64,000 bases of DNA, from NCBI GenBank assembly GCA_963772045.1, contig CAVYWC010000007.1:438023-502022 (forward strand), in the 5' to 3' direction. Below, piece by piece: positions 1 to 13,755 of this stretch; the first letter of the stretch is position 1, and each line of letters opens with the position of its first letter. The translations under genes and the position numbers were made by a program. This DNA is from an uncultured Acidobacteriaceae bacterium. GTDB taxonomy: Bacteria; Acidobacteriota; Terriglobia; Terriglobales; Acidobacteriaceae. The notes beneath the pieces were generated by a model that saw only the letters and a program-made list of their open reading frames with translations, was not told the origin of the DNA and did not search any database.

Positions 1-624
1 CGGAACGTGGGGGCATGGCGTCTCAACGCGAACGCCAACTACAACCAGGGTATGGAAACCCAGCTGGCGCTGACGACCGAGTCCGAGGCGACCGCGAATG
101 TGGGGATCCGCCGCACTGTGGCCGACAGGATGAGCTTTGGGGCGACCGCGGGATACGGCAGAAGCCTCTTTTCGACGCAGCAGGGGCAATCGACGAAAAC
201 AGAGAATGCGGGCGTCTATCTGGGCTGGATGAAACAGACTTTGTCCGGCAACTACGGAGAGTCGGGTGGAACCGCAATTATTACCAGCGCAGGGCTGGTC
301 GCAGTGACAACGCCCGGTCTGAACACCGCTCAGATCACGCCCTACTCCGGGAAGAGCTACAATGTCGGCTACGCGAATACTTTGATCAAGAATCTGAACC
401 TGAGTTTTTCCTGGAGCAGGTTCCTGAGCACCGGCACGGGCGCCGGGCTGTTCTCAAATGTGTCGGCAGAAACGTACCTGGGGAGCGCGACTTATCAATA
501 TCGCAAGATCGATTTCATCGCCAATTATTCACAAAGTCATCAAGGGGCCAGCAACACATCCGCTGCGCCCAGTAACATAACCGTTTACTACTTCGGGATC
601 TCGCGATGGTTCGACTTTTTCTAA
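1..624 (+). CDS. Outer-membrane beta-barrel protein, C-terminal ~205 aa (5' end outside window)
   Basis: The frame is open from base 1. It shows a G/S/T/N/Y-rich alternating beta-strand pattern and ends ...YYFGISRWFDFF with a terminal Phe (OMP beta-signal). The stop lies 5 nt before the next gene. Confidence 0.6.
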   Translation, partial: RNVGAWRLNANANYNQGMETQLALTTESEATANVGIRRTVADRMSFGATAGYGRSLFSTQQGQSTKTENAGVYLGWMKQTLSGNYGESGGTAIITSAGLVAVTTPGLNTAQITPYSGKSYNVGYANTLIKNLNLSFSWSRFLSTGTGAGLFSNVSAETYLGSATYQYRKIDFIANYSQSHQGASNTSAAPSNITVYYFGISRWFDFF

Positions 625-629
625 AGCAA

Positions 630-1691
630 ATGTCGATTACCCGGCGCGCCACGGCGCTAGTTGCCTGTGCGTTTCTTTTGGCACCTATCGCCCAGGCTAG
701 GGGGAACGGAGGTAAGCCGGAATTCGTTCCGGCGCCCCCCGATCTGTTGCTGGAAGGGAACCGCAAACTCAGTTTTGTGCAGGCCTTCAGCTCGGAACGC
801 GAGGCCAGCAAACCGGGGTTCTTCGGCAAACTGCTGAACGTAGTGGCGGGCGAGCCGGTCCATCACCGAATGGTGCGGCCCTATGGGATCGCAGTCGATT
901 CGCGCGGTCGCATCATTGTGACCGATCCCGGTGCCCAGGGCGTTCATATCTTCGACTTCGGCCAGCATAAATATAAGTTCCTAGAGCGGCTTGACACGGA
1001 AAAGAACCCGATGCGTCAGCCGCAGTGCGTGGCGGTAGACGCAAACGACAACATTTATGTCACAGATTCGGAGTCCGGGTACATCTTTGTGTTTGATCCG
1101 CACGGCGGATTGCGCCGCGTGATCGGCAGCCTGAAGGGCGGCGAAGGGTATTTCAAGCGTCCCACTGGTATTGCGGTGGATTCCGCTGCGGGAAAAATCT
1201 ATGTCGCGGACACACTGCGAGACAAAATCTTTGTCCTGGACATGAATGGCTCTATTCTGCGGACCATCGGAGACCACGGCAGGAATCCAGGCAATCTGTA
1301 CTTTCCGACCGAACTCAGGCTGACAAAGAGTGGTCTGATCGCAGTGGACTCGATGAACTTCCGAGTACAGTTGTTTTCCCTCGACGGAACTGTTCAGAGC
1401 ACAATAGGCAGTATCGGAGATTCAGTCGGCAGCATGTTCCGCCCCAAGGGAGTTAGCGTCGATTCGGAAGATCATATTTATGTTGTCGATGGACTTTGGG
1501 GTGTCGTTCAAATTTTCGACCGGCAAGGACAACTGCTCTATTACTTCGGTCAGCGGGGGACACAGTTGGGCGAATTCCAACTACCGTCAGGGATATTTAT
1601 CGACAGCAAGGATCGTATCTACGTAGCTGATTCCTATAACGGACGAGTGCAAGTTTTTCAGTATCACGGCATTCCCCCTGTAAAGGAGTAA
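630..1691 (+). CDS. Periplasmic NHL-repeat protein (six-bladed beta-propeller)
   Basis: Signal peptide MSITRRATALVACAFLLAPIAQA. Six repeats of the type GIAVDS.G.IYV.D.....I.VFD are present (e.g. GIAVDSRGRIIVTDPGAQGVHIFD, GIFIDSKDRIYVADSYNGRVQVFQ). The ORF-track start at 606 overlaps the upstream stop, so ATG 630 is preferred. Confidence 0.8.
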   Translation: MSITRRATALVACAFLLAPIAQARGNGGKPEFVPAPPDLLLEGNRKLSFVQAFSSEREASKPGFFGKLLNVVAGEPVHHRMVRPYGIAVDSRGRIIVTDPGAQGVHIFDFGQHKYKFLERLDTEKNPMRQPQCVAVDANDNIYVTDSESGYIFVFDPHGGLRRVIGSLKGGEGYFKRPTGIAVDSAAGKIYVADTLRDKIFVLDMNGSILRTIGDHGRNPGNLYFPTELRLTKSGLIAVDSMNFRVQLFSLDGTVQSTIGSIGDSVGSMFRPKGVSVDSEDHIYVVDGLWGVVQIFDRQGQLLYYFGQRGTQLGEFQLPSGIFIDSKDRIYVADSYNGRVQVFQYHGIPPVKE

Positions 1692-1695
1692 GAAA

Positions 1696-3732
1696 GTGAG
1701 GAAAGCGGTAGCACTGGCGCTATTTTGGATGGTGGCATTGGCGGCCAGCGCTCAGATATCCGGCAATGCCCTTGGAGCTCACGATATGGGGGGAAGTGGA
1801 ACATCCCCCACCGTGGGAGGCCTGCCCGCTTGCTACTTTTGCCATGCTCCTCATAACGGTGTCGGCGGGACTCAGGTCGGCCTTTGGTCGCAGAAACTTT
1901 CCACCGTCCAGAATTACACACTCTACCCACAAAGCCAAATTACGAACTTGGTTGAGGAACCGCTTCTCGGGGATAAGAGCAATCTTTGCTTGAGCTGTCA
2001 CGATGGGAGTGTTGCTCCCGGACAGACGATGCCGTGGGGTCCAATCAAAATGAGTGGATCGATGCAGTCCCAGGACCTCTTTGGCCGAGATCTGTCGACG
2101 GCTCACCCGTTCAATTTCAAGCTGCCGCTGCAAATGCCGCCAGATCAGAACCTGATTCCCACGGTCGTGAGTTCCGGTGCCACTGCAAACCCTCTAGTTC
2201 AGATGCCTGGCGGAAATGTGCAATGCGTAAGTTGTCACGAGCCTCACGTTCAAGGCCTTGACTCCTCGAACGCGTTTCTGGTGGTGGATAACACCGGCTC
2301 AGCACTTTGCCTGGCCTGCCATGTCTCGTCTCCCGAGTCGGCCGGCAGCATGATAGGGTTCAGACACGTGACGCCCTTTAACGTAGCTGCGGCGCAAAGC
2401 GCCCCGGCCAGCCAGTCCGGTCCCACTCAAAAGACCTACAATGCGTTGACCGCGTGGAGCAATAGCATCCACGCTCAGGCTGGCCAACAGGCAGCGAGAG
2501 CGGCCAACGTGGGTCCTCACGGAAGCGTTCGCAAGAACGGCTGTGAGTCGTGCCACAGCATGCACAAGGCCCAGGCGGGAGAGGCTCTTCTGTCTCCGGC
2601 AAAACAAGCTCTGACCAATGTAGATGCATCGACTCAGACCTGCTTAAACTGCCACAACGGCGGATCGACCATCTCTCCTCCGATTGGCAACATCTATCAG
2701 GAGTTTACGAAGAAGGGTCATCCTTTCCCGACGGGCACGAATACCCACCTAATGAACGAAGCTGCACTCTTGAACCGGAATCGCCACACTACCTGTGTGG
2801 ATTGCCATAACCCGCATGCTTCCCAGAAGACATCATCATTTCTCGTGACAACGATTCGTCCTTCCCAGGAGGGTACGGACGGCATTAGTGGTGTCGACGG
2901 TGTCACCGTAGTCAGCCCAGCCGTCAATCAGTACGAGGTTTGTTTCCGTTGCCACGCGGCCAGCTCGGGAAAGCAACGTCTGGCGATCTATGGTTATTCT
3001 CCGACCCGAATGGACACGACTGGCGATCCCTTTAATCTGGTGCCTCAGTTAAACAACAATTCGGTGTCCAGCCATCCGGTGGCTCATGTGCGGCAGAGCA
3101 AGTTTCCTCAGCCCAGTCTTCTGAAATTCATGTGGAACCTGGACGGTCACACTCAAGGGCGAATCATGGGTTCCCGCATTCTTTGCACGGATTGCCATAA
3201 CAGCGATGACAATCGGGAGTTTGGTGGTTCGGGGCCGAACGGACCTCATGGCTCGCAGTACGATCACATCCTTGAACGTCGTTACGAGTACAGCCAAGTT
3301 GCTTCTGCGGCTGGTCCGGGAACTACAATCCAAAGCCTTTTGCCGGTGGTTGTCGATCCGGGGGCCAATGGGCCCTACTCACTCTGCGCGAAGTGTCACG
3401 ACCTTGTGAACATTCTTTCCGATGCCAGCTTCCGCAAGCACTCGGTTCACATCAATGCGGGTTTCTCCTGTTCGGTATGTCACACGGCCCACGGAGTGGC
3501 GAAGGGTTCCGTGGGGCTGTCGGGCGATCGGTTGGTGAATTTTGATCTGAACGTCGTTGCGCGGAATGATGTCAGCCAAGGTCCGATCTCCTACAATCGG
3601 AATACTGGGACATGTACGCTCAAGTGCCACAACTTCAACCATAACCAGAATGGCACGGTAACCAACTCGCGAGGCAAAACGACACCGACTCAATTACAAG
3701 GGGTCTTGCCTCCGTGGGCGGTTAAGCATTGA
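1696..3732 (+). CDS. Secreted multihaem cytochrome c with 12 haem-binding motifs (11 CXXCH + 1 CX3CH)
   Basis: GTG start preceded by AAGGAG. Signal peptide MRKAVALALFWMVALAASA. Motifs: CYFCH, CLSCH, CVSCH, CLACH, CESCH, CLNCH, CVDCH, CFRCH, CTDCH, CAKCH, CSVCH and CTLKCH. All 24 Cys lie in these motifs. C..CH.PH pairs recur, as in doubled-CXXCH families. Confidence 0.9.
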   Translation: MRKAVALALFWMVALAASAQISGNALGAHDMGGSGTSPTVGGLPACYFCHAPHNGVGGTQVGLWSQKLSTVQNYTLYPQSQITNLVEEPLLGDKSNLCLSCHDGSVAPGQTMPWGPIKMSGSMQSQDLFGRDLSTAHPFNFKLPLQMPPDQNLIPTVVSSGATANPLVQMPGGNVQCVSCHEPHVQGLDSSNAFLVVDNTGSALCLACHVSSPESAGSMIGFRHVTPFNVAAAQSAPASQSGPTQKTYNALTAWSNSIHAQAGQQAARAANVGPHGSVRKNGCESCHSMHKAQAGEALLSPAKQALTNVDASTQTCLNCHNGGSTISPPIGNIYQEFTKKGHPFPTGTNTHLMNEAALLNRNRHTTCVDCHNPHASQKTSSFLVTTIRPSQEGTDGISGVDGVTVVSPAVNQYEVCFRCHAASSGKQRLAIYGYSPTRMDTTGDPFNLVPQLNNNSVSSHPVAHVRQSKFPQPSLLKFMWNLDGHTQGRIMGSRILCTDCHNSDDNREFGGSGPNGPHGSQYDHILERRYEYSQVASAAGPGTTIQSLLPVVVDPGANGPYSLCAKCHDLVNILSDASFRKHSVHINAGFSCSVCHTAHGVAKGSVGLSGDRLVNFDLNVVARNDVSQGPISYNRNTGTCTLKCHNFNHNQNGTVTNSRGKTTPTQLQGVLPPWAVKH

Positions 3733-5285
3733 TTCGCACAGAGCCCGACACTGTAAACTCGCATCCCCCCGGCGTGAGTGAAGTCCTGATTAGAAGCGGT
3801 TGCGCCAAAGTCAGCCTGCTTCGCCTATCGCAAAATTCCGTCACTCGAATTTTGGTTCTGATCTTGCTGTTGAGCACAGCGGCTCTGTGGGAAGCGAAGC
3901 AGATTTCGGCATTTTCAAACGATGAGATTTGGTGTCATCTGCGCACCGGGATGTGGATTCTCCAGAAGCATGCGATTCCTCACACGGGATTGTTCTCGCA
4001 GTTTTCAATATCCCGCTGGATTGATTTCAGCTGGCCGTATGATGCGTTGTGCGGGGCTGTCTACACCTTGTTGGGATTGAGAGCTTTTCCCCTGTTGCTC
4101 ATGATGTTCAAAGTGGCAGTGGGTGGAATTACTTTCCTGCTCGCGGGAGGGCGACGCAACTTCTGGTGGGCGGTAGTGCTCTCCGTATTAGCCCAGTTCA
4201 GCTTCTCTTCGCTGCAGCCGCTTCCAGAAGTGTTTTCGATCTGCCTTTTTGGATTGGCGCTGCATTGCATGCTTGAGGCTCATCGCAGCCATGACTTAGC
4301 TTATTTGCTGTGGCTGCCACCTTTGTTTTTGTTCTGGGCAAATCTCGATGCCCGGTTCGTTCTGGGCTTGCTGCTGCTCTTCATGTTCTTACTGGGCGAG
4401 ATCCTGGAAAGGGTGACGCGTCTATCGGGGAACTACAATTCCGGGTCTCCGCGAATTCCTCTCCTTTATCTTGTCGCGATCGTTGCGGGCTGTGGTATGG
4501 CGACAATGATCACGCCTTACTTTGTTCATCTGTTTCCCGCTGCCTTGCAGTCCTTGTATAGCTTCACACTGTTCAAGAACTTCTCCTTCACGGCTGCTAT
4601 GAGCTTTCGGCGGCCTGAACACTTTGTCCTAACCTTGCTGCTTTTTTCGGCCTGCCTCCGACTGGGACGGGAGCACTCCCGGGACATCTTCAAGATACTT
4701 CTGCTTGTCTGCTGGGCAGCTCTGGCATTTCGGGTTCAACGCGACAACTGGACAGTTGTTCTAGCCTCGATCGCGATTCTCGGCGGCGCTGTCGCAATGG
4801 ATGGCGATAAGATGGGTGCTCTCGGGCAGATAAGTGCGAAGAATGCCAATCTTTGCATTGCGGCCGGCGTGGCGACCCTGCTGACGCTTTCTTTCTTTTT
4901 GTTGCCCGGTAATCAACTCCTTGAGTCTCGACTCGATCGTATCCTGCCAGCCAAAGCGTGTGAGTACATACAAGAGAATCATCTCCCCGGTCCGCTGTTC
5001 AACGGATCCACGTGGGGAGGGTATCTGATGTGGAAACTTCCCGAGTATCCGGTCGCGATGGATGAGCGCTTGAACCTATATGGAGAGGAGTTCAGCGATG
5101 CGTACTTTGAAGTGATCATGGGCAAGCGGAGAATGGAAACATTGCCGGGCTTCGCTAGTGAGCAGATCGTGCTGCTGCCGGTGAACCTTTCGATGGCGAA
5201 GGCACTCACTACAATTCCAGCCTTGCAACAGCAATTCCGCGAAGTTTACCGAGACAAAGTCTCGATCGTCCTGGTGCGACGATGA
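3729..5285 (+). CDS. Polytopic inner-membrane protein, GT-C-glycosyltransferase-like (tentative), paralog A
   Basis: Many hydrophobic helices. There is an acidic motif in the first loop after TM1 (SNDEIWCHLRTGMWI), a shared WANLDARF motif and the C-terminal motif WGGYLMWKLPEYPVAMDERLNLYGEEF. The start is uncertain (TTG 3729 overlaps the cytochrome stop). Confidence 0.65.
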   Translation: MIRTEPDTVNSHPPGVSEVLIRSGCAKVSLLRLSQNSVTRILVLILLLSTAALWEAKQISAFSNDEIWCHLRTGMWILQKHAIPHTGLFSQFSISRWIDFSWPYDALCGAVYTLLGLRAFPLLLMMFKVAVGGITFLLAGGRRNFWWAVVLSVLAQFSFSSLQPLPEVFSICLFGLALHCMLEAHRSHDLAYLLWLPPLFLFWANLDARFVLGLLLLFMFLLGEILERVTRLSGNYNSGSPRIPLLYLVAIVAGCGMATMITPYFVHLFPAALQSLYSFTLFKNFSFTAAMSFRRPEHFVLTLLLFSACLRLGREHSRDIFKILLLVCWAALAFRVQRDNWTVVLASIAILGGAVAMDGDKMGALGQISAKNANLCIAAGVATLLTLSFFLLPGNQLLESRLDRILPAKACEYIQENHLPGPLFNGSTWGGYLMWKLPEYPVAMDERLNLYGEEFSDAYFEVIMGKRRMETLPGFASEQIVLLPVNLSMAKALTTIPALQQQFREVYRDKVSIVLVRR

Positions 5286-6793
5286 GTGTTCAGCCCGCAG
5301 CGTCTAGAGTTGACTCTGGAATCGCTCGGGAATTGGCCCAACTATTGGGAAGACCCATTGCGAAGGTGACAGCACTCGGGGCCTTATTTGCTTTGTTTTC
5401 CTTCACGACTTTGCTGAGCAAGGGCTACCTGGTTGACCCGGATATCTGGTGGCACTTGAAGGTTGGGGATTGGATCGTACAGCATCGGTCTGTCCCATGG
5501 GTAGGCATTCTTTCACGTACCGCCGCCAATCGGCCTTGGTTGGCGTACAGCTGGGCGTTTGAGGTAATCCTGTCCCGAGTCTATGCGTGGTTGGGACTGA
5601 TGGGCTTTGCCTACTTCGGCATCCTGTTATCCCTGCTAGTCCCGCTCGTGCTATTTGCCACCTGCTTTGCCCTTTCCGGTCGCTTCTGGCGATCGTGGCT
5701 GTTGACACTGGTTGGAACCTTTGCCTACGTTTTCGCCCTTTATCCCCGCCCCGTATTCTTCAGCATGATGCTGTTCAACGTCCTGGTGTATCTGCTGTTG
5801 CAGGCGCAACGCAGCAACCAGATCCGCGAGCTTTACTGGTTGCCGCTGATATTCATGGTTTGGGCGAATCTTCACATCCAGTTCATTTACGGGCTGGCCA
5901 CCCTGGGGCTTTTTGTTGTCGTCACGGCTGCAGTTCGGCTCGTTTCACGCCGGTCCTTCAATTCAAGTGCGTTCCGGACGTCCTCGTTGTCATTGTCCAG
6001 ATTGTCGCTAATCCTAGCCGCCAGCGCGGCGGCGTCTTGCATCGGCCCGTATTCTTACCGGCTCTTCGGAGTAGTCTTTGCATACTCCCGCGCAACACAG
6101 ATTTACTTCGTCGTTCAGGAGTTGCTGTCTCCGACATTCCTCAGCTTCACCTGCTTCATTCTCCTTTTTGTCGTTATGGCTGCTTTCTATGCGGCGGGGT
6201 CGCGAAAGCAGATCGACCTGTTTCAGCTGCTCCTGCTGGTCATAGGTTCGCTTTCGGCCTTACGTATGGTTCGAGACGCGTGGTTTGCCGCGATTCCAGC
6301 CATTCTCTTACTGGCGGATGCTCCTGCGGACTCCACCGGCCACGATGCGGCTTTCAGTCGCTGGCAACTCTTGTCTATTACTGTTGCGATGGTATTCGTA
6401 GTCTTCTTGCTGTCGACGAATACGGGGTTTACTCCTCGTGGAGTCGATTACACCGTGAGTATGGAGTATCCGGTCGACGCCGCGAATTTCGTGCGCAGGA
6501 TCGAGCCACCCGGGCCAATCTACAATGACTTCGATTGGGGTGGCTTCCTTACTTGGTATCTTCCCCAATATCCGGTTTCGATCGACGGTCGTACTGATCT
6601 TTACGGAGACAAGTTCGTGGCGGATTATTTTAATTTCAGGTTCGGCGATCGAACCGAAGGCGATCCGCAACTTGATCAGGCCGGCACGGTATTGCTTAAG
6701 AAAGACGCGCCGCTTGCCAAATTGCTGAAGCAGGACCCACGTTTTCGCTGCGTTTATGAAGACGGCCTTGCCGATGTTTTCTTACGCAACTGA
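5282..6793 (+). CDS. Polytopic inner-membrane protein, GT-C-like (tentative), paralog B
   Basis: ATGA start/stop overlap with paralog A. It aligns with A at DPDIWWHLKVGDWI, WANLHIQF and WGGFLTWYLPQYPVSIDGRTDLYGDKF, and has many TM helices. Confidence 0.7.
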   Translation: MSVQPAASRVDSGIARELAQLLGRPIAKVTALGALFALFSFTTLLSKGYLVDPDIWWHLKVGDWIVQHRSVPWVGILSRTAANRPWLAYSWAFEVILSRVYAWLGLMGFAYFGILLSLLVPLVLFATCFALSGRFWRSWLLTLVGTFAYVFALYPRPVFFSMMLFNVLVYLLLQAQRSNQIRELYWLPLIFMVWANLHIQFIYGLATLGLFVVVTAAVRLVSRRSFNSSAFRTSSLSLSRLSLILAASAAASCIGPYSYRLFGVVFAYSRATQIYFVVQELLSPTFLSFTCFILLFVVMAAFYAAGSRKQIDLFQLLLLVIGSLSALRMVRDAWFAAIPAILLLADAPADSTGHDAAFSRWQLLSITVAMVFVVFLLSTNTGFTPRGVDYTVSMEYPVDAANFVRRIEPPGPIYNDFDWGGFLTWYLPQYPVSIDGRTDLYGDKFVADYFNFRFGDRTEGDPQLDQAGTVLLKKDAPLAKLLKQDPRFRCVYEDGLADVFLRN

Positions 6794-7470: not shown

Positions 7471-8142
7471 CTACATTTGCGGTTTAGCTGACTTGGTGCC
7501 ATCGGCGACATGGAGGTGCTGTTTCGCCTGCGCGATCATTTTTTCGACTTGGTCCCGCTTCGGGTGATCCGGATGCAGCTTGAGCAACTTCTCCCACATC
7601 TCGATTGCGCCCTGCGGGTCTGACTTGGTCCGCCATTTGACCATGCCGAGGTTGAAGAGCGCGTTCGCGAATCCGGGATCAATGGAGATGGCCTGCTCGA
7701 GAGTCGCGATGGCTTTGTCGGCGTTTCCCTGATAGTAATAGGCCGAAGCCAATTGGGTGAGTGCGGTGGGGTTTGCACTCTTGACCGCCAGTGAACGTTC
7801 GTAGTATTGCTGCGCTGTCTGGGGCTGTTGCGCCGCCAGATACACGTCCCCGATTTTCGTCAGCAGCCCATCGTCATTTGGATGTGTCTTCAATTCGGTC
7901 AACAGAGGCGCAACTTGCTGATCGGCCATATGTGCAAGCTGAGCGGGCGTGATCTGAGACGGGTCAAGCGGAACTTTCGGAGCATTCGCTGGCTGCACAA
8001 CCTGTGCGGGCTGATTCACCGGGCCGGGCGTCGGTCCGTGAAGCAGATAGCCAACCGCGATTCCGATTACCAGGCACAATGCCAACAACACATAGGCTTG
8101 CGTGCTGGTCCATTGTTGGCTAGCTTCTGTTTTGCTGCCCAT
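7471..8142 (-). CDS. Membrane-anchored TPR protein (CcmI/CcmH-C/NrfG-like architecture), paralog 1
   Basis: GGAG RBS. One N-terminal TM helix (AYVLLALCLVIGIAVGYLL), a Pro/Gln-rich linker, then about 3-4 TPRs. By eye it is roughly 40 percent identical to 13039-13755 over about 145 aa. Confidence 0.75.
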   Translation of the reverse strand: MGSKTEASQQWTSTQAYVLLALCLVIGIAVGYLLHGPTPGPVNQPAQVVQPANAPKVPLDPSQITPAQLAHMADQQVAPLLTELKTHPNDDGLLTKIGDVYLAAQQPQTAQQYYERSLAVKSANPTALTQLASAYYYQGNADKAIATLEQAISIDPGFANALFNLGMVKWRTKSDPQGAIEMWEKLLKLHPDHPKRDQVEKMIAQAKQHLHVADGTKSAKPQM

Positions 8143-8680: not shown

Positions 8681-10054
8681 TTAGTCTCGCTTGGAATTTA
8701 AGTAGTTGGAGTAGTAGCGATTTGCTTCCTGGACGTTTCCCGCCTGCCAGTAGTAGCGAGCCATGTCCCGATTTGCAAGGGGAAAATCAGGATACTGGTC
8801 GAGCAGTTGTTTGAGCAGCGGGTACGACTCCGGCATTCGATTTGCCGTCTGATAAGCCTCTGCCAGATTGTATTTGGCCATTACGTTTGTGGGTGCAGTC
8901 TCAACCGCTCGACGGAACAACGAGATGTCATCTCGCCAGATCCGCAGGTCGGAGCGACTACACCAACACAAAACTACTCCAACCGCAGTCCATGCCACCG
9001 ACCGGGCAACAGTGAAGCGCACGCCACAAAGCCATTCGGCTGCGATGATCGCTAAGCCAACCGATGGCAGGTACAAATAACGATCGTGGGTATAGTCATT
9101 GTAGGTTAGGTAACGAATGGACAGAGCTGGGAGAAGGGTGATCGCAAACCAGGCGAGGCCAAATTGAACGTTGGCTGAGCTCTTGCGAATGATCCATACC
9201 AAACTCACTGCGACTGCAAGTAGCAGTAGCAGCGGCCATGGGGATCGTCCGATAGGGACATCATAGGAAACACTGAGATGTACCGGCCAAATGAGATGCC
9301 CGGCGTATGCCACCAGCAAGCGGGGCCACGTCAGAATCATCGCGGATACGCTCATGCCGGCGGGTCCTCCGGTTACCGGGTTCCCTAAAGCCATGGTTCG
9401 AAGCACGAAATAGAGAAGAACGGAAGGAAAGTAGGGAAGCACATTCACGATGGCGGGTTTGAGTCCCGACCGGGTCCATTCGTAAACGAGGATCAGCGCT
9501 GGAGCCACGATACCGGTTTCTTTGCTGAACATCGCCAACGTGGCAAACAGAATCGAGGGAAAACTGATCGGGCCTTTCCGCTTAACATAAAAGAAAACGC
9601 TAAGCGTCAGAGAGGTCGTGAGAAGTAGATCGCCACTGGATGAAAGCCACGCTACAGCCTCAGTGTGAATGGGATGGATTGCAAACAAGGCGGTGGCGAG
9701 TAACGTTGTCCTAAGATCGTTGATCAAACCGCGGAGCAATAAGAACACGCAGGCGGTCGCTAACAGGTGAGCCACTATTGAAGCGAGATGCCAGATGGCG
9801 CCGGGAGGCCCAAGAATCGCAAACACCAATCGGAACCAAAGCAAGAACATCGGACGATAAAAAAGAGAAGGCTGCTTTTGCGAATTTGCCCAGAGGTGCG
9901 CGGTAAAATATCCAGGAACGTGGCTCCATGACTGGAGACGCTGATTCAACACGAGTTGTTCATAGTCATCGTAGACCGGCGAATAGTGAATCTCTGGCAG
10001 AAAAAGCAAGAAAGTGCCCACCAAAATGGCTGCCAGTTGCAACCGTAGGCGCAT
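8681..10054 (-). CDS. TMTC/DUF1736-like GT-C membrane protein with C-terminal TPR repeats
   Basis: Acidic first-loop motif YSPVYDDYEQLVLN. The FAIHPIHTEAVAWLS motif is typical of TMTC/DUF1736 proteins. There are about 10 TM helices and C-terminal TPRs (AEAYQTANR..., ARYYWQAGNVQEANRYY). The ATG lies 1 nt after the upstream stop (TAGaATG). Confidence 0.75.
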   Translation of the reverse strand: MRLRLQLAAILVGTFLLFLPEIHYSPVYDDYEQLVLNQRLQSWSHVPGYFTAHLWANSQKQPSLFYRPMFLLWFRLVFAILGPPGAIWHLASIVAHLLATACVFLLLRGLINDLRTTLLATALFAIHPIHTEAVAWLSSSGDLLLTTSLTLSVFFYVKRKGPISFPSILFATLAMFSKETGIVAPALILVYEWTRSGLKPAIVNVLPYFPSVLLYFVLRTMALGNPVTGGPAGMSVSAMILTWPRLLVAYAGHLIWPVHLSVSYDVPIGRSPWPLLLLLAVAVSLVWIIRKSSANVQFGLAWFAITLLPALSIRYLTYNDYTHDRYLYLPSVGLAIIAAEWLCGVRFTVARSVAWTAVGVVLCWCSRSDLRIWRDDISLFRRAVETAPTNVMAKYNLAEAYQTANRMPESYPLLKQLLDQYPDFPLANRDMARYYWQAGNVQEANRYYSNYLNSKRD

Positions 10055-10055
10055 T

Positions 10056-12893
10056 CTACTTCACCGTCACCGGCAAATTGATGGTGGCACTTGTGCTTCC
10101 GCTCGTGGCCACTAAGGTCAGATTGTAGCTGCCCGCCGGAGTACCGGGATTTGTGGTGGTCACACTTCCTGAACCCCCGCCGCAACCTCCGAGCCCCACG
10201 AGGAACGCGGCGATCGCAAGCGTTGTCAACCGCGCTGTCTTTCTCACCTGCTTTTTGCTGCTTGCTTCGGAGATCACGAGTATGCCGGCGATTGCGATCC
10301 CAAAGGGGAGGCCTGGCCAAGATTTCGGCCATCTCGGAGTCGACGGTGACAGGAAAGAAACCTGGTTCGAAGCCGTGGTGTTCACCGTCACATTCGCAGT
10401 TGCGGGCGCGCTGCTCGAGATTTGAACAGTGCTGGCCGAACAGGAGGCTCCAAGCATGGACGATGGTGTGGTGCAGGTGAAGGTCACACTGCCGGTGAAG
10501 CCGCTGACGACGTAGATCGTCACTGGAATTTTCGCTGATTGACCGGCAGTGATGGTCGTCCCGGTTGCACCCTGATCTGCCGACAGGGTGAAGTCTGCGG
10601 CCACTACAGTAATCGAGATCTGCACTGACGCCGCGGCAGAATAATCGGCACTTCCGTCCTGGTCCGCCTCTACCACGATGGTGCCTGTTCCGGTGACTGT
10701 CAGCGTGCTACCGCTGATGGTTCCGGGGCCTGAAATGACCGTGTATGTGATCGGTAGTCCGGAACTTGCCGTTGCCGTCAGCGTCACCGGTGCGACCCCA
10801 TTGGGCAATGTCCCGGGATTCGGGAAGGTAATGGTCTGCGCTGCGGCGTTTACGGAGAAGGTTTGGCTCACGGGTGAAGCGGCTGCGAAGAAACCGTTGC
10901 CGCCTTGCACCGCCTGAACCGTAACCGAGCCGGGTGCCGTGAACGTCAGTAGGTTGCTGGCGCTCAAAGTTGCAGGTCCCGAGATCACGGTAAAGCTCAC
11001 CGGAAGGCCTGACGTTGCGGTTGCACTCAGCTCCAGCGGAGTGCCGTAGCTCTGAGCCCCGGGATTTGGAAAGTTGATCGTCTGCGTCGCAACGATGATA
11101 GAAGTGAGTGGAAGCGTGACCGATTCGCTGGTCAAGAAGTTGCTATCGCCGCTGTACTGCGCATAGACGTTATCCGTTCCTGTGGTGGACAAGCCGCTGA
11201 CGGTCACCGTCGTAGAGCTGGTCGCCTGCAGCAGCACCGACTCCGCCGTCATTGCATAATTTGCCGTGATGATGTCCAGCAGACCGTCCCCGTTAAAATC
11301 GCCGACAGCAATGCCGTCCGGAGCACCTCCGGCGGTCGGGGCCAATGGTGCAGCCGTGAAAGTCCCGTTCCCGTTGCCGAGGAAAACCGTGACGGTATCG
11401 ACTGAGTAGTCCGCCGTGGCGAGGTCGAGGTTGCCGTCATTGTTAAAGTCTCCAGCCACGATCGCAAACGGACCGGACCCGGTGGCAACTGGGCTGCCAG
11501 TGGCAGCCGTGAAAGTTCCGTCGCCATTGCCCAGCAGAATTGTTACGGTGTCGTCATAGTGGTTCGCGATGGCGAGGTCGGGAACACCGTCCCCGTTAAA
11601 ATCACCTGCGGCGATCGCGATGTCGTTATTGCCGGTCGGATAGCTGTTTCCCACGGCGAAAGTTCCATCTCCATTGCCTAGCAGGATCGTCACCACATAG
11701 TTGGCCGGCGAGTTGGTATTCGAACTGGTGACCGCCAAATCCAACTTGCCGTCGCCGTTGAAATCCATGGCGACCATACCCTCCGGATTTACCGACCAGG
11801 CCGGCACAGTTGCGGACGAACCGACCGCAAAGGTTCCGTCGCCATTGCCCAGCAAAATCGTCACTACATATCCGGAAGCGTTATTGCTTATGGCCAAGTC
11901 CGGAACTCCATCGCCGTTGAAATCGCCTACTGCGATGGACGCCGCGTAAGCCGCGGCTGGAAGGGTAGCAGGGATCGTGAACGTGCCGTCGCCATTGCCC
12001 AGCAGGATGGTTACGCCATTGCTTCCTGAATTGGCAAATGCAATGTCCAAATTGCCGTCGCCGTTGAAGTCGGCAGCGACAGCTCCTTCCGGATTGGCAC
12101 CTACCGAATATGTCGTAGCTTGCGCGGTAAAAGTTCCATCACCGTTGCCCATCATGACGGTGGCTGTCCCCGAACCGTTCAGGCTGGCCACCACGTAATC
12201 CAGACGGCCGTCGTTGTTGAAATCGCCCACTGCGATGGCTTGATTCTGAGAGGTTGCGGCGGGGCTGGATGTACTGGCAAAGGAAAATCCTGTTGTCGGC
12301 GCGACTGGGGGCGCTAGAGAAACCGAGCCAAGGCTGGCGCTAGTAGTGGCATCGAAAAACGACACGCTGCCAGTTGGCGTAACCGTGCCGGTCGTTGTGA
12401 CCGCGCCGCCAGCCCAGACGGTCGCATTCAGGGCATAGGCGCCAGTCGCCCCAGTGGCACTGATCGTGGTTGTCGAGGGTAGCAGGCCGCTCACTGTCAA
12501 ACTGGCAGCTGACGAAGTGCTCGCGGCGTAAGGGTTCGTGCCTTGGAAAACCGCCGCAATATTGTACGTTCCGGGACCGAATATCTTGTGGATGCTCGCG
12601 GTTCCCGCTGCCGATCCAGAAGCCATGATCCATGCGCTGCCAAGGATCGCAGCGCCCTCGCAGTACGTCGCGCTGGCGTTGCAGAACACCACCTGGCCCG
12701 ACGTCACGGCCGTTCCGCCGGATATTACAGTAGCCCTAACGGTAACCGCGGTTCCAGTGGTTACGCTACTGGAGGACAAAGTCAGAGTGGTAGTGGTTGG
12801 GCTGGGCTGCGCCCACATCGCGGGAGCTGCAAGCAGGATCAACAGCATTCCGCATACGATCCGACGCCCAAGAGAATCTACACAAGTCAGCAT
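10056..12893 (-). CDS. Giant secreted FG-GAP (integrin-alpha-like 7-blade propeller) + Ig-like repeat protein with unusual C-terminal double hydrophobic segment
   Basis: Signal peptide followed by Ig-like Thr/Ser-rich segments. Seven repeats of the type GDFNGDG.(L/P)D... + VTILLGNGDGTF lie at about 11244-12251. At least three Ig-like segments follow (QTINFPNPG..., QTITFPNPG..., DFTLSAD...). The protein ends with a TM helix, a basic patch, a second hydrophobic stretch and CGGG. Confidence 0.85.
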   Translation of the reverse strand: MLTCVDSLGRRIVCGMLLILLAAPAMWAQPSPTTTTLTLSSSSVTTGTAVTVRATVISGGTAVTSGQVVFCNASATYCEGAAILGSAWIMASGSAAGTASIHKIFGPGTYNIAAVFQGTNPYAASTSSAASLTVSGLLPSTTTISATGATGAYALNATVWAGGAVTTTGTVTPTGSVSFFDATTSASLGSVSLAPPVAPTTGFSFASTSSPAATSQNQAIAVGDFNNDGRLDYVVASLNGSGTATVMMGNGDGTFTAQATTYSVGANPEGAVAADFNGDGNLDIAFANSGSNGVTILLGNGDGTFTIPATLPAAAYAASIAVGDFNGDGVPDLAISNNASGYVVTILLGNGDGTFAVGSSATVPAWSVNPEGMVAMDFNGDGKLDLAVTSSNTNSPANYVVTILLGNGDGTFAVGNSYPTGNNDIAIAAGDFNGDGVPDLAIANHYDDTVTILLGNGDGTFTAATGSPVATGSGPFAIVAGDFNNDGNLDLATADYSVDTVTVFLGNGNGTFTAAPLAPTAGGAPDGIAVGDFNGDGLLDIITANYAMTAESVLLQATSSTTVTVSGLSTTGTDNVYAQYSGDSNFLTSESVTLPLTSIIVATQTINFPNPGAQSYGTPLELSATATSGLPVSFTVISGPATLSASNLLTFTAPGSVTVQAVQGGNGFFAAASPVSQTFSVNAAAQTITFPNPGTLPNGVAPVTLTATASSGLPITYTVISGPGTISGSTLTVTGTGTIVVEADQDGSADYSAAASVQISITVVAADFTLSADQGATGTTITAGQSAKIPVTIYVVSGFTGSVTFTCTTPSSMLGASCSASTVQISSSAPATANVTVNTTASNQVSFLSPSTPRWPKSWPGLPFGIAIAGILVISEASSKKQVRKTARLTTLAIAAFLVGLGGCGGGSGSVTTTNPGTPAGSYNLTLVATSGSTSATINLPVTVK

Positions 12894-13038: not shown

Positions 13039-13755
13039 CTACTGCTGCACCTGTTTTCCAGAACTGCCGGGAGTGATCCCTTCGTGTTTTTTGGCCTCGG
13101 CGATCAGTTGCAGCACCTTGTCTTTGGCCTCGTAGTTTGGGTTGGTGTCCAACAGCTTTTGCCACGTGGAGATCGCTGCATTCGCATCCATCTTGCCTTG
13201 CCATTCGACAATGCCCAAATTAAACAAAGTGTTGGGCTTATTCGGCTCGTACGAAAGCGATTTCTTGAACTCTGAGATGGCGCTGTCGGCATCTCCCGCA
13301 TACCAGGCCGCCGTAGCCAGGTCGGTGCGCACGCTGGTGTCGGCGGGCTGCAGTTTCAGAGACTGCAGGTAATACTGGATCGCGATCGGGTATTGCTGGG
13401 CATCGTAGTAATAGTTGCCAATGCTGGCCAGCAGTCCCGGGTCATTCGGATCAGATCTGAGTTTTTGGATCAGTGGAGCCGCTTGCGCGTCGGCCATCCG
13501 TTTCAGATCTTGGGGGCTGGGCATCTGCTGTTGCGGCATGGCCGAGCCCGGGACGCCCGAACCCGGTACAGCGGCAGCCATCTGCGCAGTTTTGGCAGAG
13601 GCGGCACTGGACTCGGATCCCCGGAATAGATAGCCCAGAGCCACTCCTACGAGAAGACAAATGGCAGCCATCACGTACACCTGCCCTACCGTCCAGCCTC
13701 CTGATGCTCCGCTCTTTTCCCCAGGGCTCGTCGTAGTCACATTCTTGTCTACCAT
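13039..13755 (-). CDS. Membrane-anchored TPR protein (CcmI/NrfG-like architecture), paralog 2
   Basis: ATG 13755 is preceded by GGGAG. The ORF-track extension to 13974 lacks coding character. There is a TM helix (VYVMAAICLLVGVALGYLF), a linker and TPRs. It is a paralog of 7471-8142. Confidence 0.75.
   Translation of the reverse strand: MVDKNVTTTSPGEKSGASGGWTVGQVYVMAAICLLVGVALGYLFRGSESSAASAKTAQMAAAVPGSGVPGSAMPQQQMPSPQDLKRMADAQAAPLIQKLRSDPNDPGLLASIGNYYYDAQQYPIAIQYYLQSLKLQPADTSVRTDLATAAWYAGDADSAISEFKKSLSYEPNKPNTLFNLGIVEWQGKMDANAAISTWQKLLDTNPNYEAKDKVLQLIAEAKKHEGITPGSSGKQVQQ

What the first reader, a model, noticed from the sequence alone, without database searches (positions are those of the whole stretch)
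1..6793. OMP beta-barrel / NHL propeller / 12-haem cytochrome / twin polytopic membrane proteins: candidate outer-membrane electron conduit or cytochrome export-modification operon
Five co-directional genes are packed with gaps of +5, +4, -4 and -4 nt, so they almost certainly form one transcript. A beta-barrel OMP paired with a secreted multihaem cytochrome follows the logic of porin-cytochrome conduits (Shewanella MtrAB, Geobacter Pcc). From memory, which I cannot check here, NHL-type propellers and porin-like proteins also accompany filament-forming cytochromes in Geobacter. The two paralogous ~500-aa membrane proteins carry an acidic first-loop motif like GT-C glycosyltransferases. That is not part of any characterised conduit I know, and it suggests cytochrome glycosylation or a new export or anchoring component. 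I know of no characterised acidobacterial system with this composition.
Basis: partly seen in the sequence, partly recalled or inferred. Interest (0 to 1): 0.75.

Follow-up and report, generated by a model that had tools for sequence, protein, structure and literature searches.

The report
Acidobacterial OmcE-type cytochrome cluster, 3′ half
The five genes are the tail end of a nine-gene outer-membrane cytochrome system, related to the Geobacter OmcE "nanowire" clusters and already reported in peat Acidobacteria in 2026, followed by two optional membrane enzymes that look like sugar-attaching glycosyltransferases.

Summary
Five co-directional genes sit at the stated coordinates with gaps of +5, +4, -4 and -4 nt. 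The cytochrome has 11 CXXCH plus one conserved CX3CH.

The window cuts the operon. Upstream lie a 16-haem DmsE-like cytochrome, a second NHL propeller, a tetrahaem cytochrome, a SurA-like isomerase and the rest of a 611-aa barrel, next to divergent resB/resC.

The first 209 residues of the 12-haem protein match the solved OmcE filament subunit (7TFS, E 2e-20). The upstream tetrahaem protein belongs to the same family. The seven-gene core is conserved across Terriglobales, including cultured Koribacter versatilis Ellin345. It matches the "EET1 porin-NHL-CytC" cluster of a May 2026 preprint, and resembles the Geobacter omcE and Tenderia uet clusters.

The twin membrane proteins belong to a large family with no Pfam or NCBIfam match. 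A confident model has a GT-C glycosyltransferase fold (STT3, DPY19, ArnT, PglB). They are accessory: only about 35% of cytochrome-anchored loci carry a GT-C gene. A PMT_2-type GT-C sometimes fills the same slot, and mp2 is usually convergent.

Verdict: a new member of a known kind. The glycosylation target is not shown.

The parts
1..624 (+). 3' end (last 207 of 611 residues) of a large outer-membrane beta-barrel gene
   Evidence: The full gene was recovered on an identical public contig at L005 8184..10019. It has a Sec signal peptide and ends in ...SRWFDFF, an aromatic C-terminal beta-signal. A crude alternation count on a 38-sequence alignment finds about 28 amphipathic 9-residue segments. 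It has no Pfam, NCBIfam or PDB sequence match. A homologue lies 5' of the NHL gene in every related locus with enough flank. The peat preprint's AF3 model of a homologue matched MtrB, TM 0.48.
630..1691 (+). Secreted six-bladed NHL beta-propeller (alternative start ATG 606)
   Evidence: Pfam NHL E 8.9e-32 with 5 repeats; DUF5128 6-bladed propeller E 1e-16. It has a Sec-type signal peptide ending AQA/RG and no convincing lipobox. A homologue lies directly upstream of the cytochrome in 57 of 57 cytochrome-anchored metagenome loci.
1696..2322 (+). OmcE-like tetrahaem module (residues 1-209) of the 12-haem cytochrome
   Evidence: phmmer against PDB gives 7TFS_A (G. sulfurreducens OmcE filament) E 5.9e-17 and 9YUQ_N E 7e-12. 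The family profile gives 1.8e-20 and 1.7e-16, spanning the whole OmcE chain. The four CXXCH and the four extra His (H29, H53, H137, H184) are invariant.
2323..3732 (+). C-terminal eight-haem module of the same cytochrome (7 CXXCH plus the conserved CX3CH at nt 3613-3630)
   Evidence: Motif count. The 11+1 count is kept in 63 of 64 homologues. Thirteen further invariant His are available as distal ligands. PDB matches are only marginal NrfA/NapB hits, E >= 0.004. AF2 without haems failed, pLDDT 33.
3729..5285 (+). mp1: polytopic membrane protein, paralogue of mp2, candidate GT-C glycosyltransferase (alternative start GTG 3774; first-loop motif N64-D65-E66 at nt 3918-3926)
   Evidence: 30% identical to mp2, E 7e-54. 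A homologue lies directly downstream of, and co-directional with, the 12-haem cytochrome in 45 of 68 related genomes and 9 of 57 cytochrome-anchored metagenome loci. A PMT_2-family GT-C takes the same slot in 7 and 2 loci respectively.
5282..6793 (+). mp2: polytopic membrane protein with GT-C fold (first-loop D52-P-D54 at nt 5435-5443; C-terminal soluble domain about residues 385-503)
   Evidence: The AF2 model has pLDDT 87.4 and pTM 0.88. Its top 18 Foldseek matches in the PDB are all GT-C enzymes (STT3, DPY19, ArnT, PglB), probability 1.00, TM 0.39-0.59. D52 and D54 are nearly invariant; H58, R331, D332, D435 and R437 are invariant. UniRef names the 50%-identical Koribacter homologue 'Glycosyltransferase RgtA/B/C/D-like domain-containing protein'. 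It has no significant Pfam, NCBIfam or PDB sequence hit.
7471..8142 (-). Membrane-anchored NrfG/CcmI-like TPR protein, probably associated
   Evidence: Pfam TPR_CcmH_CycH E 4.6e-9 (below the family cut-off); NCBIfam NrfG E 1.9e-7. A homologue lies within 10 kb in 63 of 80 mp2-anchored loci. It sits directly upstream of the mp2 homologue on the same strand (gap 234 nt or less) in 14 of them. It parallels nrfG in the uet cluster.
8681..10054 (-). Polytopic membrane protein with C-terminal TPRs; possible further accessory, weakly linked
   Evidence: Only the TPR part matches known families. It shows no profile similarity to the mp family. A homologue is present in 14 of 80 related loci. Its fold was not tested.

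Best explanation
Window 1-6793 is the 3' half of a conserved Terriglobales gene cluster for moving electrons across the outer membrane through multihaem cytochromes. It is of the same kind as the Geobacter/Desulfuromonas omcE clusters, the Tenderiales uet cluster and the 'EET1 porin-NHL-CytC' cluster of peat Acidobacteria.

The full plus-strand unit is: 16-haem DmsE/MtrA-like periplasmic cytochrome, NHL propeller, tetrahaem OmcE-like cytochrome, SurA-like prolyl isomerase, 611-aa beta-barrel, NHL propeller, 12-haem cytochrome (OmcE-like tetrahaem module plus eight further haems), mp1, mp2. System II haem-attachment genes resB/resC lie divergently upstream.

Shown:
- the homology of both cytochromes to OmcE;
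- the gene content and its conservation;
- the GT-C fold of mp2;
- the variable, optional nature of the GT-C genes.

Inferred mechanism:
1. The 16-haem protein carries electrons through the periplasm and into the barrel.
2. The isomerase and the propellers help fold, export or scaffold the cytochromes.
3. The OmcE-like proteins lie outside the cell. The tetrahaem protein is the abundant subunit, possibly polymerising. The 12-haem protein is the barrel-proximal or terminal partner.
4. mp1 and mp2 are accessory periplasm-facing glycosyltransferases. They would use a lipid-linked sugar to modify a product of the cluster, most likely the OmcE-like cytochromes, before or during export.

The direction of electron flow (reduction or uptake) is not determined.
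For: - Upstream genes were recovered from a contig identical to the window over 11,691 nt.
- OmcE homology: 7TFS E 5.9e-17 for the single sequence and 1.8e-20 for the profile; 9YUQ E 1.7e-16.
- The tetrahaem family (41 sequences) always has 4 CXXCH plus exactly 4 other invariant His, the OmcE pattern. It hits 9YUQ at E 1.1e-7, and aligns to the 12-haem family's N-terminal module at HHalign probability 99.4%, E 1.7e-21.
- The 16-haem protein scores 177.5 bits against DmsE family TIGR03508, with 8 paired-CXXCH units.
- The core order is conserved. NHL lies directly upstream of the cytochrome in 57 of 57 loci. The full seven-gene order is seen wherever flank allows, and in Koribacter versatilis Ellin345.
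- A sequence-conserved GC-rich hairpin with a T-run follows the tetrahaem gene. The exact pattern occurs in 47 of the 166 loci held, once in each but one, and never in the 64-kb window. This fits a highly expressed major subunit.
- mp2 has a GT-C fold and a conserved D-x-D just after the first transmembrane helix.
- A different GT-C family (PMT_2, PF13231) occupies the mp1 slot in other genomes.
- Literature: the minimal omcE cluster is 2 MHC + 2 propellers + OmcE + a large barrel next to resB/ccsB. It is often followed by glycosylation genes including GT39. G. sulfurreducens OmcE carries probable glycan densities. The uet cluster has the same kinds of parts. EET1 is transcribed in peat.
Against: - No experiment exists for any Terriglobales member.
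- Filament formation is inferred from homology only. The 12-haem protein is three times the size of OmcE.
The cytochrome model failed (pLDDT 33).
- The propellers are not lipoproteins here, unlike in Desulfuromonadia.
- GT-C genes are missing from 37 of 57 cytochrome-anchored loci, so they are not needed for the core function.
- The mp family is very large: 26,534 clusters at 50% identity with E <= 1e-3. It cannot be dedicated to cytochromes as a whole.
- No donor-synthesis genes (GT2, flippase) lie nearby.
- No conserved acceptor motif was found beyond one N-Y-T sequon in 37 of 41 homologues.
- The topology of mp2 was not resolved by charge counts.
Confidence: 0.6

Rival explanations
1. The cytochrome part is as described, but mp1 and mp2 have nothing to do with it. 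They would be general envelope GT-C enzymes (lipid A, exopolysaccharide or general protein glycosylation) that happen to sit at the 3' end of the cluster in one lineage.
For: 37 of 57 cytochrome-anchored loci have no GT-C gene in the flank. The family has more than 26,000 clusters at 50% identity. Some mp2 homologues (L029, L057, L065, L083) have no OmcE-like cytochrome within 10 kb. mp2 is usually on the opposite strand. ArnT, a lipid A transferase, is among the fold matches.
Against: Among the 80 closest genomic relatives of mp2, 66 lie within 10 kb of the cytochrome. mp1 homologues follow the cytochrome within 218 nt or less, and sometimes overlap it, in 42 of 46 cases. An unrelated GT-C family takes the same slot. 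An NrfG/CcmI-like apocytochrome-type TPR protein is often the upstream neighbour of mp2. Geobacter omcE clusters show the same pairing with glycosylation genes.
Confidence: 0.28
2. The cluster is a plain Mtr-like porin-cytochrome conduit with no polymer. The DmsE-like 16-haem protein sits in the barrel. The 12-haem protein acts as a monomeric surface reductase, analogous to MtrC. The tetrahaem protein is a soluble shuttle. This is essentially the model of the peat preprint.
For: The DmsE-family match of the 16-haem protein. A homologous barrel matched MtrB in the preprint's AF3 model. The 12-haem protein has enough invariant His (17 outside the motifs) to ligate all its own haems.
Against: Both extracellular cytochromes carry the complete OmcE module. 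The tetrahaem one has exactly the 4+4 His pattern, in which OmcE gives one His to its neighbour. The propeller, isomerase and barrel set is the one tied to nanowire secretion in the osc and omcE clusters. The terminator-like hairpin after the tetrahaem gene resembles major-subunit genes.
Confidence: 0.3
3. mp1 and mp2 have a GT-C-like fold but are not glycosyltransferases. They would be a new export, anchoring or haem-handling component for the cytochromes.
For: No sequence match to any curated GT-C family. They have a conserved C-terminal soluble domain of unknown function. An NrfG-like TPR protein is a frequent neighbour.
Against: The D-x-D after the first transmembrane helix is the hallmark position of the GT-C catalytic acid (established knowledge of PglB, STT3, ArnT and PMT). 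A bona fide PMT_2 enzyme replaces mp1 in the same slot. The core cluster works without them in most lineages.
Confidence: 0.08
4. The cytochrome is a periplasmic reductase of the Nrf/Hao type, and the barrel is an unrelated porin.
For: Marginal NrfA hits to residues 200-319, E 0.004. Some databases name homologues 'nitrate reductase cytochrome c-type subunit'.
Against: The only significant structural relatives are OmcE filaments. There is no CXXCK catalytic motif. Linkage to the barrel and propeller is invariant.
Confidence: 0.02

Closest known systems
Geobacter/Desulfuromonas omcE nanowire gene cluster (OmcE structures 7TFS, 9YUQ; bioRxiv 10.1101/2025.10.22.684050)
   Same: There is an OmcE-homologous tetrahaem cytochrome with 4 CXXCH plus 4 conserved His. 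The set also has two further multihaem cytochromes, two beta-propeller proteins and one large barrel. It neighbours resB/ccsB. It is optionally followed by glycosylation genes, including GT-C (GT39), and TPR proteins.
   Different: The phylum is Acidobacteriota, which is not among the five phyla listed in that paper. The propellers have no lipobox. A SurA-like isomerase lies inside the cluster. One accessory cytochrome itself carries a full OmcE module fused to eight more haems. The glycosyltransferase complement is one to three GT-C genes rather than 15-70 genes. The main GT-C family has no Pfam model.
omcS companion (osc) operon of G. sulfurreducens (Shen et al. 2025, as summarised in PMC13194489)
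   Same: It holds a filament cytochrome together with proteins proposed for folding (OscH), secretion (OscE, F, G) and morphology (OscD).
   Different: OmcS is a hexahaem protein. I did not test sequence relationships of the osc proteins to the present ones, because no sequences were at hand.
uet (undecahaem electron transfer) cluster of Ca. Tenderia electrophaga and Gallionella (bioRxiv 10.1101/2022.05.06.490989; PMC10734462)
   Same: The parts list matches: tetrahaem cytochrome (UetA), prolyl isomerase (UetB), large barrel (UetC), two NHL proteins (UetH, I), an 11-12-haem doubled-CXXCH cytochrome (UetJ), ccsAB and an NrfG-like TPR protein. A VWA protein lies nearby in the window, compared with batABD there.
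   Different: One 16-haem cytochrome replaces three trihaem c7 proteins. No cupredoxin (UetF) was found. GT-C genes are not reported for uet. uet is linked to electron uptake. Orthology was not tested by sequence.
'EET1 porin-NHL-CytC' cluster of peat Terriglobales (bioRxiv 10.64898/2026.05.27.727921)
   Same: This is almost certainly the same cluster family. It has the same order, the same three-gene core, and an OmcE-like cytochrome matched to 7TFS. It is transcribed in situ.
   Different: That work defines a three-gene core and counts 13 loose haem motifs. Its main text and supplementary discussion do not mention the tetrahaem OmcE-like gene, the isomerase, the second propeller, the 16-haem cytochrome, the hairpin or any glycosyltransferase.
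Shewanella MtrCAB / Geobacter Pcc porin-cytochrome conduits
   Same: A periplasmic DmsE/MtrA-like multihaem protein, a large barrel and an extracellular multihaem protein are encoded together.
   Different: The 16-haem protein is below the DmsE family cut-off (177.5 against 192.2 bits). The barrel has no MtrB-family sequence match. The extracellular cytochromes are OmcE-like, not MtrC-like. Propellers and an isomerase are present.
GT-C (class A) glycosyltransferases: STT3/PglB, DPY19, ArnT, PMT
   Same: mp2 shares the predicted fold. It is polytopic, with a soluble C-terminal domain, and has acidic residues at the start of the first long loop.
   Different: No detectable sequence similarity to any curated family. 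Donor, acceptor and activity are unknown.

Membership tests
OmcE-type cytochrome (nanowire subunit family) | Sequence homology to solved OmcE filament subunits across the whole tetrahaem unit | tested here: met
   12-haem protein residues 6-209 against 7TFS, E 1.8e-20, and 9YUQ, E 1.7e-16. Tetrahaem family against 9YUQ, E 1.1e-7. The two families align at HHalign probability 99.4%.
OmcE-type cytochrome (nanowire subunit family) | Four CXXCH plus four further conserved His | tested here: met
   Tetrahaem family: 41 of 41 have 4 CXXCH; H95, H258 and H337 are invariant and H109 nearly invariant. N-terminal module of the 12-haem protein: H29, H53, H137 and H184 are invariant.
OmcE-type cytochrome (nanowire subunit family) | Polymerises into an extracellular filament with inter-subunit His-haem ligation | not testable with these tools
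   This needs cryo-EM or at least haem-aware multimer modelling. AF2 without haems gave pLDDT 33.
omcE-type gene cluster | OmcE homologue plus two other multihaem cytochromes, two beta-propellers and one large barrel, next to resB/ccsB | tested here: met
   L005 gene map. The order is conserved in genomes and metagenomes.
omcE-type gene cluster | Beta-propellers are lipoproteins | tested here: not met
   Both NHL proteins have Sec-type signal peptides. NHL439 has no Cys in its leader. NHL361 has an A-x-A cleavage site after a short 'LVAC' (sequence inspection). The preprint also reports Sec/SPI.
uet cluster | UetA-J parts list with ccsAB and nrfG | tested here: inconclusive
   The same kinds of proteins are present for UetA, B, C, H, I and J, plus ccsAB and an NrfG-like TPR. 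No cupredoxin and no separate trihaem c7 genes were found. Sequence orthology to the Tenderia proteins was not tested, because no sequences were available.
EET1 (Fiorito et al. 2026) | Porin - NHL - OmcE-like cytochrome core in Terriglobales | tested here: met
   The order OMP611 - NHL361 - cyt678 is seen in 57 of 57 loci with flank. All 80 related genomes are Acidobacteriota, mostly Terriglobales. Identity with the preprint's representative could not be checked by sequence.
MtrAB / DmsEF porin-cytochrome conduit | MtrA/DmsE-family cytochrome at the curated threshold and an MtrB-family barrel | tested here: not met
   TIGR03508 scores 177.5 bits, below the cut-off of 192.2. The barrel has no Pfam, NCBIfam or PDB sequence match.
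GT-C glycosyltransferase superfamily | GT-C fold | tested here: met
   The AF2 model has pLDDT 87.4. The Foldseek top 18 are all GT-C, probability 1.00, E 7e-6 to 9e-4, TM 0.39-0.59.
GT-C glycosyltransferase superfamily | Conserved acidic residue(s) at the start of the first extracytoplasmic loop | tested here: met
   D52 and D54 are at least 90% conserved and H58 is invariant, directly after helix 25-46. The sidedness of the loop is inferred, not shown.
GT-C glycosyltransferase superfamily | Membership of a curated sequence family (PMT_2, STT3, ArnT-type and others) | tested here: not met
   No Pfam or NCBIfam hit for mp1, mp2 or 30 homologues, even at E <= 5. HHalign against a PMT_2 neighbour gives probability 0.1%.
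GT-C glycosyltransferase superfamily | Transfers sugar from a polyprenyl-phosphate donor | not testable with these tools
   This needs a biochemical assay.

The most novel reading that the evidence does not exclude
The 12-haem protein carries a complete OmcE subunit module, with all eight His, fused to a conserved eight-haem extension. It is encoded next to a tetrahaem OmcE-like protein that has the filament-type 4+4 His pattern and a major-subunit-style terminator. The 12-haem protein could therefore be the missing end piece of a cytochrome nanowire. It would be a base or tip subunit that docks onto the tetrahaem polymer by His-haem exchange. It would wire the polymer either through the barrel to the periplasmic 16-haem protein or out to the substrate. 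The unannotated GT-C family would decorate this wire. The authors of the D. soudanensis OmcE structure explicitly noted that no such OmcE-like, haem-richer candidate is encoded in the operons they examined.
Probability: 0.18. Interest if true: 0.75.

Novelty: new member of a known kind. Interest (0 to 1): 0.45.

Why it matters
Terriglobales are among the most abundant soil and peat bacteria. How they dispose of electrons without oxygen is an open question tied to peat carbon and methane budgets. This locus shows three things.

1. Their recently reported 'EET1' core is really a seven-gene, OmcE/uet-type system, with a tetrahaem OmcE-like subunit and a DmsE-like periplasmic partner.
2. The whole cluster exists in a cultured strain with a complete genome, Koribacter versatilis Ellin345. 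Filament formation, localisation and electron transfer can therefore be tested directly.
3. A large, unannotated GT-C-fold family, interchangeable in position with PMT_2 enzymes, is linked to these cytochromes. This gives a concrete candidate for the enzyme behind the probable glycans seen on OmcE-type wires.

None of this is a new principle. It extends a known kind of system to a major soil phylum and names testable parts.

Tried and rejected
1. A homologue search with the 207-residue OMP fragment returned only two short fragments, so no full-length alignment was usable.
The number of strands therefore rests on a crude alternation count of about 28 segments and on the preprint's AF3 result.
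3. AF2 of the 12-haem cytochrome with a 41-sequence alignment failed (pLDDT 33, pTM 0.21). I ran no fold search on it.
4. Sequence searches of mp2 and of the barrel profile against the PDB found nothing.
5. Profile comparison of the mp family with the neighbouring TPR-membrane protein and with PMT_2 showed no relationship.
6. A search for conserved N-x-S/T sequons or Ser/Thr-rich acceptor regions gave one conserved N-Y-T in the OmcE-like module, in 37 of 41 homologues. The Gly/Ser/Thr-rich N-terminus of the tetrahaem protein is confined to close relatives. This is not enough to name an acceptor.
7. Positive-inside charge counts did not settle the topology of mp2.
8. One look-up of a distant mp-family representative gave a 6-kb contig with no informative context.
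9. Consensus promoter and terminator scans over the operon were no better than shuffles. Only the hairpin after the tetrahaem gene stood out on folding.
10. The Nrf/Hao-type periplasmic reductase reading is rejected.

Full report
**1. Observation**

- OMP fragment 1..624
- NHL protein 630..1691
- cytochrome 1696..3732
- mp1 3729..5285
- mp2 5282..6793

The junctions are +5, +4, -4 and -4 nt. The cytochrome has 11 CXXCH and one CX3CH (CTLKCH). All 24 cysteines lie in these motifs. Pfam confirms NHL repeats (E 9e-32) and the doubled-CXXCH domain (E 4e-21). The OMP fragment, mp1 and mp2 have no significant Pfam or NCBIfam match. mp1 and mp2 are paralogues, 30% identical, E 7e-54.

Two start codons are uncertain. 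Public gene callers start the NHL gene at ATG 606. One caller starts mp1 at GTG 3774.

**2. The window cuts the operon**

The exact mp2 and NHL proteins occur on a 2.25-Mb ENA metagenome contig. That contig is identical to the window over the 11,691 nt that overlap. Upstream of window base 1, on the same strand, lie:
- a 439-aa NHL propeller;
- a 407-aa tetrahaem cytochrome;
- a SurA-like PPIC-type prolyl isomerase;
- the first 404 residues of the barrel, which is 611 aa in total with a signal peptide and a terminal ...WFDFF.

A fifth gene was missed by the public gene call, which placed a spurious minus-strand ORF there. L005 2761..4284 encodes a secreted 16-haem cytochrome whose stop abuts the ATG of the NHL gene. 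It has eight doubled-CXXCH units. It scores 177.5 bits against the DmsE/MtrA family TIGR03508, whose cut-off is 192.2.

Divergently upstream lie resB and resC, the System II cytochrome c maturation genes. The unit is therefore nine genes, and the finding covers its last four and a third.

**3. What the cytochromes are**

The only significant solved relatives of the 12-haem protein are OmcE filament subunits:
- 7TFS_A (G. sulfurreducens OmcE): E 5.9e-17 with the single sequence, 1.8e-20 with a 41-sequence profile;
- 9YUQ_N: E 1.7e-16.

Both matches cover residues 6-209 of the query and essentially the whole of the 218-232-residue chains. The aligned region contains the first four haem motifs and the four additional histidines that are conserved in OmcE (H29, H53, H137, H184). 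The remaining 470 residues carry eight more haem sites. They have only marginal NrfA/NapB similarity (E >= 0.004).

The upstream tetrahaem protein belongs to the same family:
- Its 41 homologues all have exactly four CXXCH.
- They share exactly four other conserved histidines.
- The family profile hits 9YUQ at E 1.1e-7.
- It aligns with the N-terminal module of the 12-haem family at HHalign probability 99.4%.

The Nrf/Hao-type periplasmic reading is therefore rejected.

**4. Conservation**

I scanned one genome per species (GTDB) with the mp-family alignment. It found 534 relatives. The best 80 loci are all Acidobacteriota, mostly Terriglobales, 'Ca. Sulfotelmatobacter' and Korobacteraceae.

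tblastn with the cluster proteins found homologues within the 10-kb flanks as follows. The counts for distal genes are limited by flank length.

| Protein | Loci of 80 |
|---|---|
| 12-haem cytochrome | 66 |
| its NHL partner | 66 |
| barrel | 56 |
| isomerase | 51 |
| tetrahaem protein | 46 |

I then ran the reverse test on 80 cytochrome-anchored metagenome loci. The NHL gene lies directly upstream of the cytochrome in 57 of 57 loci with enough flank. The order 16-haem, NHL, tetrahaem, isomerase, barrel, NHL, 12-haem recurs wherever the contig is long enough. The 11+1 haem-motif count is kept in 63 of 64 homologues.

The cultured strain Koribacter versatilis Ellin345 (CP000360.1) has the complete cluster. 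Its cytochrome is 50% identical with the same 11+1 motifs. It also has a tetrahaem protein, an mp1 homologue and a convergent mp2 homologue, Acid345_0739.

**5. The twin membrane proteins**

An AF2 model of mp2 built on 32 sequences is confident (pLDDT 87.4, pTM 0.88). Its 18 best PDB fold matches are all GT-C glycosyltransferases: STT3 of yeast and human OST, DPY19, ArnT and PglB. Probability is 1.00 and E ranges from 7e-6 to 9e-4.

D52 and D54 are nearly invariant, in the motif DPDIWWH. They sit directly after the first transmembrane helix. This is where GT-C class A enzymes carry their catalytic acid (established knowledge of PglB, STT3, ArnT and PMT). UniRef labels the Koribacter homologue 'Glycosyltransferase RgtA/B/C/D-like domain-containing protein'.

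The family is large. It has 26,534 clusters at 50% identity with E <= 1e-3, and 3,095 with E <= 1e-30. No Pfam or NCBIfam model detects it.

**6. How tightly the GT-C genes are tied to the cytochromes**

In the mp2-anchored genomes (68 loci with the cytochrome and enough flank):
- an mp1 homologue follows the cytochrome directly and co-directionally in 45;
- where a distinct co-directional mp1 is present, the gap is 218 nt or less in 42 of 46 cases;
- the mp2 homologue is convergent, tail-to-tail with mp1, in 59 of 64.

The co-directional, overlapping twin seen in the window occurs only in the four closest relatives.

In 7 of 68 genomes and 2 of 57 metagenome loci, the slot behind the cytochrome holds a different GT-C. 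This is a PMT_2 (PF13231) protein with no detectable sequence similarity to the mp family. That looks like non-orthologous replacement, and it argues that a GT-C activity is what is selected at this position.

In the unbiased cytochrome-anchored set, however, only 20 of 57 loci have any mp or PMT_2 gene within the flank. In several others the cluster is followed by housekeeping genes such as hemA, lytB and squalene-hopene cyclase.

The seven-gene core is therefore universal, and the GT-C genes are optional accessories. A membrane-anchored NrfG/CcmI-like TPR protein (window 7471..8142) is within 10 kb in 63 of 80 loci. It lies directly upstream of mp2 on the same strand in 14 of them.

**7. A conserved RNA hairpin**

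Right after the stop codon of the tetrahaem gene there is a perfect 12-bp GC-rich hairpin followed by a U-rich stretch (MFE -30 kcal/mol, z -4.6). The stem sequence GGGGAGAG...CTCTCCCC is conserved. The exact pattern occurs in 47 of the 166 loci held, once in each apart from L013 (two copies). In each locus I cross-checked, it lies at the junction between the tetrahaem and isomerase genes. It never occurs in the 64-kb window. Koribacter has a variant of it.

This is the arrangement typical of genes for abundant fibre subunits. I take it as circumstantial support that the tetrahaem protein is the major product.

**8. Comparison with what is known**

- *omcE clusters.* The D. soudanensis OmcE preprint describes the minimal omcE cluster as two multihaem cytochromes, two beta-propeller lipoproteins, OmcE and a large barrel, inserted next to resB/ccsB. 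It is commonly followed by 15-70 glycosylation genes, including GT2, GT4 and GT39, and by TPR proteins. G. sulfurreducens OmcE shows probable glycan densities. OmcE homologues were reported in five phyla that do not include Acidobacteriota.
- *osc operon.* The osc operon of OmcS is proposed to supply folding, secretion and morphology factors.
- *uet cluster.* The uet cluster of Tenderiales and Gallionella has a tetrahaem cytochrome, an isomerase, a 28-strand barrel, two NHL proteins, an 11-12-haem doubled-CXXCH cytochrome, ccsAB and nrfG.
- *EET1.* A May 2026 preprint on Swedish bogs describes the 'EET1 porin-NHL-CytC' cluster in 49 Terriglobales MAGs. It has an MtrB-like barrel and an OmcE-like cytochrome (AF3 TM 0.70 to 7TFS), and it is transcribed at depth. 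Its main text and supplementary discussion do not mention glycosyltransferases, the isomerase or the tetrahaem gene.
- *Earlier notice.* A 16-haem Koribacter cytochrome was already noticed in Arctic peat reads in 2013.

The present locus is therefore a member of a known, though experimentally untested, cluster type.

**9. Mechanism, with shown and inferred steps kept apart**

Shown:
- gene content and order;
- OmcE homology of both cytochromes;
- DmsE-like nature of the 16-haem protein;
- secretion signals;
- GT-C fold and acidic motif of mp2;
- the optional, replaceable nature of the GT-C genes.

Inferred:
- The 16-haem protein bridges the periplasm and enters the barrel.
- The propellers and the isomerase assist export or scaffold the complex.
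- The OmcE-like proteins are extracellular, with the tetrahaem one possibly polymerising.
- mp1 and mp2 glycosylate a cluster product, most likely the OmcE-like cytochromes.

Not determined: the direction of electron flow, the inner-membrane quinol oxidase, the sugar donor and the acceptor.

**10. Limits**

- The barrel could not be modelled.
- The cytochrome model failed.
- Only the best 80 hits of each scan were examined.
- Sequences of the Uet, osc and GSU0615-0617 proteins were not available, so no direct orthology tests were done.

Noticed in passing
L005 6998-7019 (about 2.4 kb upstream of window base 1); the same junction in 46 other loci: A sequence-conserved hairpin, GGGGAGAG-loop-CTCTCCCC plus a T-run, lies immediately after the tetrahaem cytochrome gene. 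The exact pattern occurs in 47 of 166 loci, once in each apart from L013, and never in the 64-kb window. The stem sequence, not only the pairing, is conserved across proteins down to about 35% identity. This suggests more than a generic terminator.
   Followed up: partly
L005 2761-4284 (+), upstream of the window: A 16-haem DmsE-like cytochrome gene is not called in the public annotation of this contig. A spurious 303-aa minus-strand ORF is called there instead. Surveys that rely on called genes would miss this component.
   Followed up: yes
L103 9904-11421; also L025, L056, L060, L063, L070-L072 and L107: A PMT_2-family (PF13231) GT-C glycosyltransferase occupies the position directly behind the 12-haem cytochrome, in place of mp1. 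Some loci carry mp1, mp2 and PMT_2 together.
   Followed up: yes
L167 (CP000360.1 899238-920734, Koribacter versatilis Ellin345): A cultured aerobic soil isolate with a complete genome carries the complete cluster, including the mp1 and mp2 homologues (Acid345_0739 is the mp2 homologue). This makes the system experimentally accessible.
   Followed up: partly
window 8681-10054 (-): A 457-aa polytopic membrane protein has C-terminal TPR repeats, an architecture reminiscent of TMTC-type GT-C enzymes. Only the TPR part matches known families. A homologue occurs in 14 of 80 related loci. Its fold was not tested.
   Followed up: partly
window 7471-8142 (-), 13039-13755 (-) and 15573-16394 (-): Two paralogous NrfG/CcmI-like TPR proteins (40% identical) and an acidobacterial VWA-domain protein (TIGR03436) lie downstream of the cluster. 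This recalls the nrfG and batABD genes that follow the uet cluster.
   Followed up: partly
window 10056-12893 (-): A 945-aa secreted protein has Ig-like (Big_3_5) domains and seven FG-GAP/VCBS repeats, a Gly/Ser-rich stretch and a hydrophobic segment near the C-terminus. It is probably a surface adhesin-like protein and is not conserved near the cluster.
   Followed up: no
window 41480-41523 (-): This is the only Rfam match in the window: Acido-Lenti-1 sRNA, 38.1 bits against a gathering score of 37. The window holds no tRNA genes.
   Followed up: no
L002 8449-10004: In one of the public assemblies of the same organism, mp1 is split into 432-aa and 85-aa ORFs. This is either a frameshift variant or an assembly error.
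   Followed up: no
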